This document shows, in pieces, positions 23,602-27,257 of a DNA stretch of 64,000 nt (position 1 is its first letter; every line of letters begins with the position of its first letter). The notes under the pieces are model-generated. The model searched no databases and was not told where the DNA came from. It was given only the letters and a program-made list of their open reading frames with translations. The stretch covers positions 7,351 to 71,350 of the forward strand of contig CAZLNP010000003.1 of assembly GCA_964561085.1 (NCBI GenBank), given 5' to 3'. Both the position numbers and the translations under genes were made by a program. This DNA is from an uncultured Candidatus Saccharibacteria bacterium (GTDB lineage: Bacteria; Patescibacteriota; Doudnabacteria; UBA920).

Positions 23602-24267
23602 TTAGCGCTTAAACACGATCAGTTTGTAAGCGATGAAGTTCCACACTAATGAGAATGCAGTTGCACAAATCTTCGCTACATTTTTAATAGTATCTGCATT
23701 AACCATGAATTCAAGGTATGGGGTAATAAAGTTTGAAGCGATTACAACAATAACACTATTAATTAACAAACCGACCAAACTAACAACTACAAAAGTCGCG
23801 AATTGAGTGCTGGCTCCAGATTTAGCGTTTAGCCTTAAACCAAAAGCAATCCATAGGCACAGCTGAACCAATACGAACGCACCTAGAACAAGCAAGAAGT
23901 AAGTGTTTATGCCATCGTAAGCAGCACCAATGAATACCGCCAAGAATGCAGCTAAACCTAAACCACCAACTGTAAACAAACGAACGGCGTTTTGGAACAA
24001 GCTCACATTGCTAGCTTCAGCAAAAGCCCACGCCCTATTCCAGAAATAACTTTGGATTATGGCAGCGGTAAAGCTGATCACATTCAAAATTCCTAGAGTA
24101 ACGCCAGAAGTAACATCGAAAGACTTAGTAACATAATTTAGGATTACGAAATCTAGGGCAGTGTTTAAACTACCGATAGCAGCAAACCTTAAAAGCTGAA
24201 TAATAACCGGACGACTGCGAAGAAGTCCAGTAATCTTATTATTCAGCAATAGTGCAAGTTGATTCAC
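23602..24267 (-). CDS. GtrA-like polysaccharide biosynthesis membrane protein
   Basis: 221 aa. N-terminal LLRFAAIGSLNTALDFVILNYV matches the GtrA-family pattern. Multiple TM helices. Confidence 0.6.
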   Translation of the reverse strand: MNQLALLLNNKITGLLRSRPVIIQLLRFAAIGSLNTALDFVILNYVTKSFDVTSGVTLGILNVISFTAAIIQSYFWNRAWAFAEASNVSLFQNAVRLFTVGGLGLAAFLAVFIGAAYDGINTYFLLVLGAFVLVQLCLWIAFGLRLNAKSGASTQFATFVVVSLVGLLINSVIVVIASNFITPYLEFMVNADTIKNVAKICATAFSLVWNFIAYKLIVFKR

Positions 24268-24304
24268 TAAAGTTTTATTAAAAATTAAGTTTTTATTGAG
24301 AAAA

Positions 24305-24961
24305 TTAGAACTCTTCTGACTCAGCAGAAGGAGAAGCTTCCATATCTTGATCCATCTGAGGTGCTGCGCTATTACCTAGGTCATCCCCTGCTTCAGCATC
24401 CATATGACCTTCGCCACGCTTGATAACATGTTCAACAGCAGCCCATTCAGATTCAATATCTTGAGGCAATACAATAGTCACTTCATCACCTGCATCAGCT
24501 TTAAAGTACGTCAAAGATGCAAGTAAAACTTTGTATGTCTTGCCATCAGCAATTACTTTGTAATCGCCTTTTTCGTCTTGCATCAAGAGACCCATTACTT
24601 TACGGCGTTCAACAGGACCAATTTGTTTGTAAATGAAAGAGCCGTCTTCTGCAATAGTCAATTTAAGAACATCACCTTCTACTAGTTTGCTCTTTGATGC
24701 ATAGTTAGCAGGTACTGGATATTGCTTACCTTCTGGACCAATCATGTTTTGACCATCGAATACACCTTCAATAACTTTATCGCCTTCTCCGCCTCCAGAT
24801 AGACCGTTGGCCTTTTCAAAGATAGCAGCACTAGTTGCATGTCGACTAGAACTACTAGAAGCACCGCCGGCTTCCCGAAGTAATTGTTTTGCGGATTGTA
24901 TATTTTTTTCTGCAGCGTCGATCATCTGCATGACCAAAGCCAAATTAGCAGTTTTGTCCAT
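24305..24961 (-). CDS. Hypothetical protein
   Basis: 218 aa. Helical N-terminus, Ser/Gly linker, beta-rich core, acidic C-terminus. No recognised motif. Confidence 0.4.
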   Translation of the reverse strand: MDKTANLALVMQMIDAAEKNIQSAKQLLREAGGASSSSSRHATSAAIFEKANGLSGGGEGDKVIEGVFDGQNMIGPEGKQYPVPANYASKSKLVEGDVLKLTIAEDGSFIYKQIGPVERRKVMGLLMQDEKGDYKVIADGKTYKVLLASLTYFKADAGDEVTIVLPQDIESEWAAVEHVIKRGEGHMDAEAGDDLGNSAAPQMDQDMEASPSAESEEF

Positions 24962-25043
24962 AATTTAATTTATTTTTGTTTGGGTTTCGATAAAAGCTTA
25001 TCGCTAAAAAGATTATAGCATATTTGGCGAGAATGGCAAGTGG

Positions 25044-27257
25044 CTACTTTAGAACTGAAAAGATTGTTATTCCATTATTAGAATAAGCCTTTTTGAAATA
25101 CTGACTATCAATATCTCCTAATTCAATGTAACTTAATAGTTCGGGATTTCTATTATCTTCAATAAACAAGTAGGATGAGTTAAAATCACTTCCTATTAGT
25201 TTATTTAAATACTCCACTGATTCCCACTTTGTAGAGTCTTCTCCGTTAATTATAATCCATTTATCATACATCGAAGGATCCCTAATATACATAAAAGTAG
25301 GATCCATTCCTAAGATATAATGGTTATGATGATTCCAAAAAAACAGTTGCGGAAATTGATCCCATTGAGAGTTATATACAATAGATCCAGGATCTGTATT
25401 CTTTACCATCCACTCAGCTGAGGCGCTAAATGGCAAAGTGCTAGGGGCACTTCTTAAAGACCTATACGTATTTAATCCATTCCAACCAAAGAAAGAGATA
25501 GTTGCAACTACTAATAGCATTAATGCAAGCCTGAATTCCCAAATAGACTTCCATGTTTTTTTAAACGCTGAGAAAGTTATATTCCTTACGTAAGGTTGTA
25601 AGGTATATGCGATCGCCAATGTTGCGGCTGGTATTGCATATTCTACATACCGCTTGCTTTTAAAGCTCATTATAAAAGTAAGGGCGCTAATACCAAAGAT
25701 CCACCACCCAGAGTGTTTATTGTCCTTAGCTTCTCTAAATTTAGCCCAAATTAATATAGAGGCGATGGCCAATAGCAATATAACTCCATTTACAGATATA
25801 TAACCACTGAAGGAGTAAGGGTATATTTCATTCCCAACTCCTACTTTATCTAATATCGAGGTGAATTGAGTGTGATAAATTTGGACAAAAGTAAGGTATA
25901 TATTATCTGGGTAAAAAGGATGAGTTAAAAGCCCGATGCAATATCCTAAAAACAGATATATAGATGGTTTCCAAATTAATTTACGTTCTACAACCGACTG
26001 AACCAAGGAGTACAATCCCACCATAGGTATTAGCAATACAGCCCCTACATTGTTTAATAAAAATAAAGCTCCTACTACGATTAACCATAAAAATTTTCGT
26101 TTGTATAAAAGGACATATGTAGCGAGGAAAAAAACTAAATTGATAGTGAGTGGGCGGCCTAAAGCTAAGCGGAAGAAAAAATCTTGAGACCCAAATAGTA
26201 ATAGCAAAGTCCAGAAAGGCCTCCATATTATATCTAATGCCTTAAGCGATTTAACGAAGGCAACTAAAAATATTCCGATAAATAATACGTTAGAAATCTG
26301 AGCTGCAACTAACAAATCCTTAAAATATGTAAGCGGAAGTTGTAACATATGGAATAGCCACCATAAATCAACTGACTTATCATTTGGAAAGGTATATTGA
26401 AGCCAAGGGAAATTAGTAACTTCACTCCACGGTAGGATTCTATACAAATATGAATATTTAATATGGAGATATAAATCATCGCCTCCTGGTAAGTAATCTT
26501 GAGAAAAGATTACATATACTAACCCAATAAAAATTCCGAAATAAACTAGGCCAGCGTAAATAAAACTCGCGTCAATTTGCTCATATTTCTGTTGGAAAAA
26601 TAATTTAAATAGATTGCAAGTATTTTTTACACCATCGTTTTTAATAGATAGCTTACTTACTCCTAACCTTTCTTTTACAGTGATGGGTATTTCCTCATAT
26701 CCTCCCAAACTTTTCATTTTTATTTTCAATTCCTGAGAAAAGGACATTCCTTCTGAATTAACTTTAATGCGCTTGAACTTAGAAGACCTTAATGCCCACA
26801 TTCCAGACTGTGTATCAGTAATTCCTTTACCAAATAATATTCTTGCAATTAAAAAGAAAATTAGATTACCTATATATCTCATCCAAATCAAATCACTAGG
26901 CTTACCAAAATTGGGCATTCTGTTACCTACTACGAGGTTTTTATTATTTTTCACTAGACTCTCAACCAGAACTGAAGTCTGAGCTGGATCATGTTGACCA
27001 TCGCCATCCAAGCCTATAATAATATCACCCACAGCTTTAGCTAAACCAGCTTTGTAAGCATTCCCATAACCAATTCTACTCTCGGTAACAACCACAACCC
27101 TATCTCCTTTAGCCCTATTTGCCGTATCATCCGTCGAGTTGTTATCAACAATTATTATCTCATCTACCATAGCAGGCATGGCTTGGATAACCTTTTGAAT
27201 ACTTTCCGCCTCGTTAAGGCATGGGATTACTGCAGATATTTTATAGTTTTGATACAT
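25044..27257 (-). CDS. Fusion glycosyltransferase: N-terminal GT2 (polyprenyl-phosphate sugar synthase-like) plus C-terminal polytopic GT-C-like membrane domain
   Basis: 737 aa. Residues ~5-230: ISAVIPCLNE...IIIVDNNSTDDT...GLDGDGQHDP (GT2, DPM1/GtrB-like). Residues ~240-737: at least 10 TM helices, with DD (GGDDLY) in the first predicted extracytoplasmic loop as in ArnT/PMT-type GT-C enzymes. Confidence 0.7.
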   Translation of the reverse strand: MYQNYKISAVIPCLNEAESIQKVIQAMPAMVDEIIIVDNNSTDDTANRAKGDRVVVVTESRIGYGNAYKAGLAKAVGDIIIGLDGDGQHDPAQTSVLVESLVKNNKNLVVGNRMPNFGKPSDLIWMRYIGNLIFFLIARILFGKGITDTQSGMWALRSSKFKRIKVNSEGMSFSQELKIKMKSLGGYEEIPITVKERLGVSKLSIKNDGVKNTCNLFKLFFQQKYEQIDASFIYAGLVYFGIFIGLVYVIFSQDYLPGGDDLYLHIKYSYLYRILPWSEVTNFPWLQYTFPNDKSVDLWWLFHMLQLPLTYFKDLLVAAQISNVLFIGIFLVAFVKSLKALDIIWRPFWTLLLLFGSQDFFFRLALGRPLTINLVFFLATYVLLYKRKFLWLIVVGALFLLNNVGAVLLIPMVGLYSLVQSVVERKLIWKPSIYLFLGYCIGLLTHPFYPDNIYLTFVQIYHTQFTSILDKVGVGNEIYPYSFSGYISVNGVILLLAIASILIWAKFREAKDNKHSGWWIFGISALTFIMSFKSKRYVEYAIPAATLAIAYTLQPYVRNITFSAFKKTWKSIWEFRLALMLLVVATISFFGWNGLNTYRSLRSAPSTLPFSASAEWMVKNTDPGSIVYNSQWDQFPQLFFWNHHNHYILGMDPTFMYIRDPSMYDKWIIINGEDSTKWESVEYLNKLIGSDFNSSYLFIEDNRNPELLSYIELGDIDSQYFKKAYSNNGITIFSVLK

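What the first reader, a model, noticed from the sequence alone, without database searches (positions are those of the whole stretch)
23602..27257. Gtr-like glycosylation module with a GT2 + GT-C-like fusion protein
A GtrA-like small membrane protein (23602-24267) lies two genes from a 737-aa protein. This protein's N-terminal ~230 aa form a GT2 polyprenyl-phosphate-sugar synthase (DPM1/GtrB-like: VIPCLNE, DNNSTDDT, DGDGQHD). Its C-terminal ~500 aa form a polytopic domain with a DD motif in the first predicted external loop, as in ArnT/PMT/GtrC-type GT-C transferases. Fusing the lipid-linked sugar donor synthase to the transferase that consumes the donor would make a self-contained periplasmic-face glycosylation unit. 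In the classical Gtr system these are separate proteins (GtrB and GtrC). The genes are AT-rich like the host backbone but sit in the accessory region after the tRNA-like element.
Basis: partly seen in the sequence, partly recalled or inferred. Interest (0 to 1): 0.5.

Follow-up and report, generated by a model that had tools for sequence, protein, structure and literature searches.

The report
Fused sugar-donor synthase and OST-like transferase
A probable Saccharibacteria (CPR) genome encodes one protein that joins the enzyme that loads a sugar onto a membrane lipid carrier to a distant relative of the protein-glycosylating enzyme STT3/AglB; that relative belongs to a large, unnamed bacterial family, so the fusion gives a first functional clue for thousands of 'hypothetical' membrane proteins.

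Summary
The 737-aa ORF (25044-27257, minus strand) has an N-terminal GT2 domain. Its best solved relative is P. furiosus dolichol-phosphate-mannose synthase (E 9e-17), and it also matches phage GtrB-like proteins. A Pfam GtrA protein lies two genes downstream.

The domain belongs to a large unannotated family: 5,811 cluster representatives, at least 580 GTDB species, many phyla. Members are nearly always unfused. The closest stand-alone GT2 relatives sit directly upstream of family members with overlapping ORFs, and the fusion arose at least three times.

This is a Gtr-like three-component module whose transferase is STT3/AglB-like, not GtrC-like. It lies in a hypervariable block at a fixed chromosomal site, not after the tRNA-like element. 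Acceptor and sugar remain unknown.

The parts
25044..27257 (-). 737-aa fusion gene (GT2 domain + X-family GT-C domain)
   Evidence: ORF. Identical protein P0001 is in NCBI and Logan. Full-length AF2 model has pLDDT 90.6 and pTM 0.80.
26565..27257 (-). GT2 domain, aa 1-231: predicted cytoplasmic polyprenyl-phosphate sugar synthase with no TM helix of its own
   Evidence: Pfam PF00535 E 2.6e-24. PfDPMS 5mlz E 9.4e-17 over aa 2-204. AglJ, DPhHxTase and PpgS are the best NCBIfam hits, all below their cut-offs. PHROG GtrB-like 5e-18. Foldseek hits DPMS, ArnC and GpgS.
26988..27008 (-). DGDGQHD (aa 84-90): the DxD/QH nucleotide-sugar and metal motif of the GT2 domain
   Evidence: Aligned to DADLQHP of PfDPMS. 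Coordinates checked.
26832..26891 (-). Hydrophobic helix aa 123-142 (LIWMRYIGNLIFFLIARILF): probable membrane-interface helix of the synthase
   Evidence: Mean hydropathy 1.68. Helix 125-142 in the model. Aligned to the corresponding stretch of PfDPMS. The interface role is inferred.
25047..26564 (-). X-family GT-C domain, aa 232-737: 11 TM helices plus a C-terminal extracytoplasmic alpha/beta domain
26463..26486 (-). GGDDLYLH (aa 258-265), first external loop: D261 invariant, H265 at least 90% conserved (family consensus D-P-D-x-F-Y-H)
   Evidence: Alignments A1 and A3. Topology.
26349..26369 (-). DLWWLFH (aa 297-303): D297 at least 90% conserved, H303 invariant (family consensus D-H-H-F-L-Y-H)
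   Evidence: It resembles AglB's N-D-H-H motif seen in P0292 and P0293, but this was not aligned by hhalign.
25818..25835 (-). GNEIYP (aa 475-480), external loop between TM7 and TM8: E477 aligns with the TIXE glutamate of AglB
   Evidence: At least 90% conserved. hhalign pairs it with the Glu of TIAEV. That Glu is residue 360 in the AfAglB chain.
25638..25658 (-). SKRYVEY (aa 534-540): R536 aligns with AfAglB R426
   Evidence: HMMER and hhalign alignments. At least 90% conserved.
25350..25367 (-). QWDQFP (aa 631-636) at the start of the C-terminal globular domain: positional counterpart of the OST WWDYG motif (hypothesis)
24305..24961 (-). Conserved acidic 218-aa protein of unknown function, always paired with GtrA in Saccharibacteria
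   Evidence: 76-82% identity across loci. No family match. No TM helix.
23602..24267 (-). GtrA-family membrane protein (221 aa): candidate flippase for the lipid-linked sugar
   Evidence: Pfam PF04138 E 7.6e-14, above cut-off. 67-72% identical in syntenic loci.
27281..27313 (-). Intrinsic-terminator-like hairpin (14-bp stem plus T8) between the upstream 507-aa gene and the fusion gene
   Evidence: pattern match only.
25012..25039 (-). Promoter-like site (11 of 12 matches, TG-extended) between the fusion gene and mid218-GtrA
   Evidence: pattern match only; the number of such sites is not above shuffle expectation.

Best explanation
This is a Gtr-type three-component extracytoplasmic glycosylation module compressed into two proteins. 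Step 1 (inferred from homology): the cytoplasmic GT2 domain (aa 1-231) transfers one sugar from a nucleotide-sugar onto polyprenyl phosphate at the inner face of the membrane. It has no TM helix of its own and is anchored by the GT-C domain that follows it. Step 2 (inferred): the GtrA-family protein two genes downstream moves the polyprenyl-P-sugar to the outer leaflet. Step 3 (inferred from fold, topology and residue conservation): the 11-TM GT-C domain is a remote homologue of the STT3/AglB/PglB oligosaccharyltransferase catalytic subunit. It uses an outward-facing site built from D261/H265 (first external loop), D297/H303, E477 (counterpart of the TIXE Glu) and R536 (counterpart of AglB R426) to transfer the sugar to an acceptor held by the C-terminal W632-D633 globular domain. 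The acceptor is unknown. A surface protein or a cell-wall glycopolymer are the candidates. The fusion gives 1:1 stoichiometry and membrane anchoring to a synthase-transferase pair that other bacteria encode as adjacent, overlapping genes. The fusion gene sits in a fast-diverging block flanked by conserved genes, as expected for a surface-modifying, strain-specific function.
Confidence: 0.7

Rival explanations
1. The GT-C domain is a true oligosaccharyltransferase. The GT2 domain acts like archaeal AglJ and puts the first sugar on polyprenyl phosphate. Other glycosyltransferases extend it to an oligosaccharide, which is flipped and then transferred en bloc by the AglB-like domain to Asn (or Ser/Thr) of surface proteins.
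Against: No other GT2 gene was found in the 64-kb window with the GT2 HMM, and no elongating glycosyltransferase is apparent near the module. The AglJ score is far below the equivalog cut-off (104 against 325 bits). There is no WWDYG motif, and no Pfam STT3 hit in any of 90 members. Recurrent direct fusion or adjacency of synthase and transferase fits direct use of the monosaccharide donor more simply.
Confidence: 0.15
2. The GT-C-like domain is mainly a membrane anchor or activator for a TM-less polyprenyl-P-sugar synthase (as DPM3 is for DPM1, or the membrane domain of mycobacterial Ppm1), and the lipid-linked sugar is used by other enzymes.
For: The GT2 domain and its closest stand-alone relatives (219-241 aa) have no TM segment. 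The fusion places TM1 directly after the GT2 domain. The DPM3 and Ppm1 precedents are from my own knowledge.
Against: Catalytic-type polar residues within or next to the membrane domain are invariant or at least 90% conserved across phyla in both fused and unfused members (D261, H303, E477, R536, W632). A simple anchor would not need that, nor a conserved 135-aa extracytoplasmic domain.
Confidence: 0.08
3. The fusion is an assembly or frameshift artefact that joins two adjacent genes (GT2 and X), which overlap in other genomes.
For: Unfused GT2-then-X pairs overlapping by 14-29 nt in different frames exist, so a single indel could merge them.
Against: The identical 737-aa protein occurs in two independent sources (an NCBI assembly and Logan SRR8640622). 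Four further fused proteins from other samples are 21-59% identical in the GT2 domain and 28-58% in the X domain. AF2 models a continuous helix into TM1 with pLDDT above 70.
Confidence: 0.02
4. The GT2 domain glycosylates a soluble acceptor (GpgS-like) or builds a polymer, and is functionally unrelated to the membrane domain.
For: Foldseek ranks glucosyl-3-phosphoglycerate synthases about as high as DPMS and ArnC, and GpgS also appears in the sequence search.
Against: The GpgS sequence alignment covers only the nucleotide-binding half (aa 6-86 or 6-101, E about 1e-7), whereas DPMS aligns over aa 2-204 at E 9e-17. A hydrophobic interface helix is present. The GT2 domain has been fused to a GT-C repeatedly, and a GtrA gene lies nearby.
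Confidence: 0.05

Closest known systems
Gtr serotype-conversion systems of Shigella/Salmonella phages (GtrA flippase, GtrB Und-P-glucose synthase, GtrC-type GT-C)
   Same: The same three functions are encoded together. The GT2 domain hits the PHROG 'GtrB-like O-antigen conversion' family, and GtrA is a Pfam member. As in gtr clusters (my own knowledge), the GtrA component is conserved between strains (67-72%) while the transferase is highly variable (about 31%).
   Different: Synthase and transferase are one polypeptide. The GT2 part has none of the C-terminal TM helices that GtrB has. The transferase is STT3/AglB-like rather than a GtrC family member. There is no prophage context. The host is a probable Saccharibacterium, which as far as I know has no O-antigen. 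An unrelated 218-aa gene sits between the fusion gene and gtrA.
Archaeal N-glycosylation enzymes AglB (oligosaccharyltransferase) and AglJ (Dol-P-hexose synthase)
   Different: No Pfam STT3 match. WDxFP instead of WWDYG. About 11 TM helices instead of 13. The AglJ score is far below cut-off. There is no evidence of oligosaccharide assembly. The organism is bacterial.
Dol-P-mannose-dependent protein glycosyltransferases DPY19 (C-mannosyltransferase) and PMT
   Different: Neither DPY19 nor any PMT chain appears among the matches when the family profile is searched against PDB sequences at E up to 10. They are eukaryotic or actinobacterial, and they are not fused to their donor synthase.
CsbB/GtcA/YfhO-type three-component glycosylation of teichoic acids in Firmicutes
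   Same: A monoderm three-component system made of a GT2 synthase, a GtrA-family flippase and a GT-C transferase (abstract of PMC7389260, listed).
   Different: No YfhO-type Pfam family is listed among the matches of the 90 members scanned at E up to 1; the first 25 of 43 matched families are shown and none recurs. The genes there are unfused, and the acceptor there is LTA/WTA.
Mycobacterium tuberculosis Ppm1 (polyprenol-P-mannose synthase fused to a membrane domain)
   Same: A precedent, from my own knowledge, for a TM-less DPM1-type GT2 fused to a polytopic membrane domain.
   Different: In Ppm1 the membrane domain is Lnt-like, not a GT-C, and it does not consume the product.

Membership tests
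GT2 polyprenyl-phosphate sugar synthases (DPM1/DPMS, GtrB, AglJ, ArnC type) | GT-A fold, Pfam Glycos_transf_2 above the gathering score | tested here: met
   86.5 bits against a cut-off of 23.3. The GT-A domain is modelled at pLDDT about 90.
GT2 polyprenyl-phosphate sugar synthases (DPM1/DPMS, GtrB, AglJ, ArnC type) | DxD (and QH) donor/metal motif | tested here: met
   D84-G-D86-G-Q-H, aligned to DADLQH of PfDPMS.
GT2 polyprenyl-phosphate sugar synthases (DPM1/DPMS, GtrB, AglJ, ArnC type) | Similarity extending over the acceptor half and a membrane-interface helix | tested here: met
   PfDPMS alignment covers aa 2-204. Hydrophobic helix at 123-142. PHROG GtrB-like covers aa 6-205.
GT2 polyprenyl-phosphate sugar synthases (DPM1/DPMS, GtrB, AglJ, ArnC type) | Reaches the curated equivalog score of a named enzyme (AglJ, PpgS, ArnC, Dol-P-hexose transferase) | tested here: not met
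   The best hit, AglJ, scores 104 bits against a cut-off of 325. Sugar specificity therefore cannot be assigned.
GT2 polyprenyl-phosphate sugar synthases (DPM1/DPMS, GtrB, AglJ, ArnC type) | Forms polyprenyl-P-sugar from an NDP-sugar | not testable with these tools
   Needs an enzyme assay.
GtrA family (PF04138) | Pfam GtrA_DPMS_TM above the gathering score | tested here: met
   52.4 bits against 26.1.
GtrA family (PF04138) | Small protein of about 120 aa with 4 TM helices | tested here: inconclusive
   This protein is 221 aa with additional hydrophobic segments, and the Pfam match comes in two stretches.
GT-C fold superfamily | Polytopic N-in membrane domain with a conserved acidic residue in the first external loop | tested here: met
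   D261 is invariant in 90 homologues. Topology.
GT-C fold superfamily | Fold match to solved GT-C enzymes | tested here: met
STT3/AglB/PglB oligosaccharyltransferases (GT66, Pfam STT3 PF02516) | Pfam STT3 match | tested here: not met
   There was no Pfam hit for this protein, and PF02516 is not listed among the matches of the 90 members scanned at E up to 1; the first 25 of 43 matched families are shown.
STT3/AglB/PglB oligosaccharyltransferases (GT66, Pfam STT3 PF02516) | Detectable remote sequence homology | tested here: met
   Profile against PDB sequences: AfAglB E 4.2e-7 is the only significant hit. hhalign against STT3-domain proteins: 95.3% probability, E 2e-8, 176 columns. The homology is limited to the region from EL5 to the last TM helix.
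STT3/AglB/PglB oligosaccharyltransferases (GT66, Pfam STT3 PF02516) | EL5 catalytic Glu (TIXE/SVSE motif) and the conserved Arg (AfAglB R426) | tested here: met
   E477 and R536 align to them, and both are at least 90% conserved.
STT3/AglB/PglB oligosaccharyltransferases (GT66, Pfam STT3 PF02516) | WWDYG motif in the C-terminal domain | tested here: not met
STT3/AglB/PglB oligosaccharyltransferases (GT66, Pfam STT3 PF02516) | Thirteen TM helices | tested here: not met
   The model has 11 TM helices. The OST number is from my own knowledge.
STT3/AglB/PglB oligosaccharyltransferases (GT66, Pfam STT3 PF02516) | Transfers a lipid-linked oligosaccharide to Asn in N-x-S/T | not testable with these tools
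   Needs biochemistry or glycoproteomics.
Classical Gtr three-component system | Synthase, flippase and GT-C transferase encoded together | tested here: met
   All three lie within 23602-27257.
Classical Gtr three-component system | GtrB and GtrC as separate proteins, prophage-borne, O-antigen acceptor | tested here: not met
   The two are fused. The flanking genes have no phage family hits. The locus is a core chromosomal synteny block.

The most novel reading that the evidence does not exclude
The X family would be a widespread, so far unrecognised bacterial branch of the STT3/AglB protein-glycosyltransferase lineage, with thousands of members in Patescibacteria, Chloroflexota, Acidobacteriota and other phyla. 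Instead of a diphosphate-linked oligosaccharide it would use a polyprenyl-monophosphate monosaccharide made by a dedicated DPM1-like partner (adjacent, or fused as here). It would glycosylate surface proteins such as pilins; T4SS-pilin genes lie next to the gene pair in L004 and L089. In Saccharibacteria the hypervariable locus would set strain-specific surface glycosylation relevant to host-cell attachment.
Probability: 0.25. Interest if true: 0.8.

Novelty: new variant of a known kind. Interest (0 to 1): 0.58.

Why it matters
Three-component (Gtr-type) glycosylation is well known, and so are GT2 synthases. Two things are new here. First, the transferase belongs to a very large family (5,811 cluster representatives at 50% identity, at least 580 GTDB species) that has no Pfam or NCBIfam model and is annotated 'hypothetical'. 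This work places it as a remote STT3/AglB homologue with the catalytic Glu and Arg retained. Second, repeated independent fusion to, and overlapping adjacency with, a TM-less DPM1-like synthase gives a Rosetta-stone prediction of its donor, a polyprenyl-P-monosaccharide. That prediction makes the whole family experimentally approachable. For CPR/Saccharibacteria, whose epibiotic lifestyle depends on surface contact, a hypervariable glycosylation locus next to a T4SS-like ATPase is a concrete candidate for strain-specific surface decoration. The work also provides a compact two-protein system for glycoengineering tests.

Tried and rejected
1. Pfam and NCBIfam on the C-terminal domain gave nothing. 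Scanning 90 members at E up to 1 showed no recurrent family.
2. A 27-member profile against PDB sequences found only a spurious DsbC hit. The 90-member profile was needed to reach AglB.
3. N-terminal (A5) and C-terminal (A4) sub-profiles against PDB found no OST hit. The DxD/DHH and WWDYG equivalences therefore remain hypotheses.
4. The AFDB Foldseek library was unavailable.
5. The search for related loci with the broad alignment A1 failed because it had no conserved stretch. It worked with the tighter A2.
6. The last homologue search, seeded with an AfAglB fragment, returned only two fragmentary STT3-domain proteins. They were enough for hhalign over the central region but not for the termini.
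7. Phage or mobile origin of the variable block: no PHROG hits apart from the GT2 domain.
8. Window-wide tRNA and Rfam searches found nothing. The tRNA-like element was found by eye. It folds like a cloverleaf but with z of only -1.0 and was not found in other loci.
9. Literature searches for this family, for GT2/GT-C fusions, or for an OST in Saccharibacteria returned nothing relevant. The library is incomplete, so this does not prove novelty.
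Full report
OBSERVATION. The three minus-strand ORFs are as described: a 221-aa protein (23602-24267), a 218-aa protein (24305-24961) and a 737-aa protein (25044-27257). All quoted motifs are present at aa 10-16, 38-45, 84-90 and 258-261 of the large protein. Pfam places Glycos_transf_2 at aa 8-163 (E 2.6e-24) and GtrA_DPMS_TM in the 221-aa protein (E 7.6e-14). 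Both are above their gathering scores. Residues 232-737 have no Pfam or NCBIfam match.

THE GT2 DOMAIN. The best NCBIfam hits are all polyprenyl-phosphate glycosyltransferases: AglJ 8e-30, haloarchaeal Dol-P-hexose transferase, PpgS, and further down ArnC and PgfS. All fall far below their equivalog cut-offs. Among solved structures the best sequence hit is Pyrococcus furiosus dolichol-phosphate-mannose synthase (E 9.4e-17). The alignment covers aa 2-204, including DGDGQH against DADLQH and the acceptor half. Glucosyl-3-phosphoglycerate synthases align only over the nucleotide-binding half (E about 1e-7). PHROGs assigns the domain to 'GtrB-like O-antigen conversion' (5e-18). A hydrophobic helix (aa 123-142, mean hydropathy 1.68) matches the membrane-interface helices of this enzyme class; that role is an inference. 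The domain has no TM helix of its own. In the full-length model (pLDDT 90.6, pTM 0.80) the GT-A fold is followed by a long helix (205-227) that leads into TM1 (230-251). Its closest stand-alone relatives (up to 46% identity) are GT2 proteins of 219-241 aa, the size of the catalytic domain alone.

THE C-TERMINAL DOMAIN. A homologue search returned 28 proteins, almost all stand-alone 'hypothetical' proteins of about 500 aa from Patescibacteria-type metagenomes. Only three carried a GT2 domain. An exhaustive profile search found 5,811 representatives (50%-identity clusters) at E up to 1e-3 and 2,417 at E up to 1e-30. Of the top 150, three have an N-terminal extension of about 230 aa, and Pfam confirms these as GT2. 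In GTDB species genomes at least 580 loci encode a relative. They span Saccharibacteria and other Patescibacteria, Acidobacteriota (Blastocatellia, Pyrinomonadaceae), Chloroflexota, Zetaproteobacteria, Nitrospinota, Aquificota and others. No Pfam family recurs when 90 members are scanned at E up to 1.

At sequence level, a 27-member profile found nothing in the PDB. A 90-member profile finds A. fulgidus AglB as the only significant hit (E 4.2e-7, profile positions 198-403 against AglB 255-518). Counting along the printed chain puts the Glu of TIAEV at residue 360 and the Arg of QNRF at 426. A profile-profile comparison with two STT3-domain (PF02516) proteins plus the AglB fragment gives 95.3% probability and E 2e-8 over 176 columns. 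It pairs the family's G-x-E-W-Y-P glutamate (E477 here) with the TIXE Glu, and S-x-R-x-V-E-Y (R536 here) with the QNR Arg.

Across 90 members, D261 and H303 are invariant. H265, D297, R363, E477, R536, E539, Y540, W632 and D652 are at least 90% conserved (numbering is domain position + 221). Sub-profiles of the N-terminal 200 and C-terminal 135 residues do not reach any OST. So the equivalence of D-P-D-x-F-Y-H and D-H-H-F-L-Y-H with the two OST D-x-D/H motifs, and of W-D-x-F-P with WWDYG, is a positional hypothesis only. It is supported by fold, by the 'NDHH' seen in the AglB-like fragments, and by my recollection of STT3 sequences. In this particular protein the consensus D-P-D is G-D-D and D-H-H is D-L-W.

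TOPOLOGY. The cytoplasmic GT2 domain fixes the N-terminus of TM1 inside. With the 11 model helices, short inside loops carry 14 K/R in 61 residues and short outside loops carry 3 in 46. This places the DD loop, H303, E477, R536 and the W632-D633 domain outside, as in GT-C enzymes.

FUNCTIONAL COUPLING OF GT2 AND X. (i) The closest stand-alone relatives of the GT2 domain, P0175 (39%) and P0173 (46%, Uhrbacteria), are each followed by an X-family gene (hmmsearch 4e-116 and 4e-92) that overlaps the GT2 stop by 29 and 14 nt. This is the same order as in the fusion. (ii) In 80 GTDB loci none is fused. Sixteen have a DPM1-like GT2 within 10 kb. In five of these it abuts the 3' end of X on the same strand: L011, L012 and L017 (Acidobacteriota) and L038 and L058 (Patescibacteria). 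L004 has X, then a PMT_2 GT-C, then a GT2 in one operon. (iii) Identity matrices and NJ trees of both domains separate the five fusion proteins into three groups. {window, P0002, P0093} have GT2 domains 44-59% identical to one another and 38-49% identical to stand-alone GT2s. P0005's X domain is 46-47% identical to unfused Saccharibacteria X, while its GT2 domain is only 17-29% identical to the first group. P0135's two domains each group with the X and GT2 genes of L004, L038 and L058. The fusion therefore arose at least three times. The trees are quick NJ trees, but the identity gaps are large. Most family members (64 of 80 loci) show no nearby synthase. That is usual for GT-C enzymes, but it limits how far the donor prediction can be generalised.

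GENOMIC CONTEXT. The module lies between the ribosomal-protein/secY operon and a VirD4/TrwB-like ATPase on one side. On the other side are dnaX, a 537-aa gene, ruvX, galT, tpiA, rpiB, rpe, tkt, pfkB, fba, gap and pgk. The same order, with mid218, GtrA, dnaX, g537, ruvX and galT following X or GT2-X, is found in loci whose X domain is only about 31% identical. The nearest GTDB relatives are labelled Candidatus Saccharibacteria.

Pairwise identities show a sharp contrast. The VirD4-like gene is 82-89% identical; mid218 76-82%, GtrA 67-72% and dnaX 60-69% against L003, L006 and L009; galT 80% against L006. The X domain is 30-33% identical and the GT2 domain 24% (L006). The upstream 190-, 257- and 204-aa genes have no detectable counterpart, and the 507-aa gene is at most 22% identical in those loci (54% in L007, which carries the 59%-identical fusion P0002). 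The fusion gene has 34.5% GC against 40.6% for the window and 42-46% for its neighbours (the profile is), though its TM-rich composition may contribute to that. The region is thus a hypervariable block at a fixed position, not a mobile island. No phage families were hit, and there are no tRNA or Rfam hits.

This mirrors gtr clusters, where (from my own knowledge) gtrA is conserved and the GT-C is type-specific. A terminator-like hairpin (27313-27281) precedes the fusion gene. A promoter-like site (25039-25012) precedes mid218-GtrA, and a bidirectional hairpin (23531-23558) follows GtrA (pattern matches only). GtrA may therefore be transcribed separately, together with the conserved 218-aa gene.

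MECHANISM AND RIVALS. The best-supported reading (confidence about 0.7) is a Gtr-type pathway. The cytoplasmic GT2 domain makes polyprenyl-P-sugar, GtrA flips it, and the STT3/AglB-like GT-C domain transfers the sugar to an extracytoplasmic acceptor. The fusion supplies membrane anchoring and stoichiometry. What is shown: domain identities, fold, topology, residue conservation, remote homology to AglB, and recurrent fusion and adjacency. What is inferred: every catalytic step, the lipid, the sugar and the acceptor. Rivals are an AglJ/AglB-like en-bloc oligosaccharyltransferase pathway (0.15), an anchor-only role for the GT-C domain (0.08), an unrelated soluble-acceptor GT2 (0.05) and an assembly artefact (0.02). 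The evidence for and against each is given in the corresponding fields.

Noticed in passing
window 23375-23449 (+): A tRNA-like element with a 7-bp acceptor stem (GUGGGCC/GGUCCAC), a canonical T-arm (GGGGUUCAAUCCCCC) and an encoded CCA, but atypical D and anticodon arms. ARAGORN and Rfam gathering thresholds do not call it, and there is only a weak mascRNA-like hit (E 0.05). The MFE fold is cloverleaf-like with z of only -1.0. It was found again only in L008, which is the same genome.
   Followed up: partly
window 23451-23558 (+): A perfect sigma-70 consensus promoter (TTGACA, 16 nt, TATAAT, with TG) lies directly after the tRNA-like element. About 50 nt later comes a 12-bp bidirectional hairpin terminator. 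This could be a small RNA of roughly 50-80 nt in the GtrA-dnaX intergenic region. Only sub-threshold Rfam hits were found.
   Followed up: partly
window 24305-24961 (-): An acidic, soluble 218-aa protein with no family match is 76-82% identical across Saccharibacteria loci whose X domain is about 31% identical. It always sits immediately upstream of GtrA, which suggests a conserved unknown partner of GtrA.
   Followed up: partly
window about 27346-35239: A hypervariable block (378-, 355-, 532-, 190-, 257-, 204- and 507-aa genes) lies between a conserved VirD4/TrwB-like ATPase (35306-37855, 82-89% identical in relatives) and mid218. Most of these genes have no detectable homologue in the syntenic loci and no Pfam or PHROG family. 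GC rises to 0.44-0.45 at 27-29 and 31-34 kb.
   Followed up: partly
window 27346-28869 (-): A 507-aa protein with six N-terminal TM helices and a roughly 300-aa C-terminal, probably extracytoplasmic, domain sits immediately upstream of the fusion gene, separated from it by a strong terminator-like hairpin (27313-27281). It has no family assignment and is a candidate acceptor or partner.
   Followed up: no
P0095 (786 aa; family representative, not in the window): An X-family member carries a C-terminal glycerophosphodiester phosphodiesterase (GDPD) domain. This is a different fusion partner and hints at a link to glycerol-phosphate polymers or lipids.
   Followed up: no
L004 9955-12093 and L089 7369-9774: Clusters of four T4SS_pilin (TrbC/VirB2-like) genes lie directly downstream of the X/GT2 gene pair in two Patescibacteria loci. 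The two loci are probably syntenic relatives and so not independent. The pilins are possible acceptor candidates.
   Followed up: no
L021 1020-4132; L069 8467-11485; L001-L003 upstream of X: Tandem X-family paralogues occur in some Patescibacteria. In three Saccharibacteria-like loci a 530-570-aa gene overlapping the start of X shares an X-like C-terminal soluble domain (hhalign 87%). In L006 the 391-aa gene upstream of the fusion gene has a weak GT87 hit. Several GT-C-like genes therefore cluster here.
   Followed up: partly
window 19965-21578 (-): A conserved 537-aa protein (63% identical in L006) with one N-terminal TM helix and no family match lies between dnaX and ruvX. This is an unannotated gene in an otherwise housekeeping stretch.
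   Followed up: no
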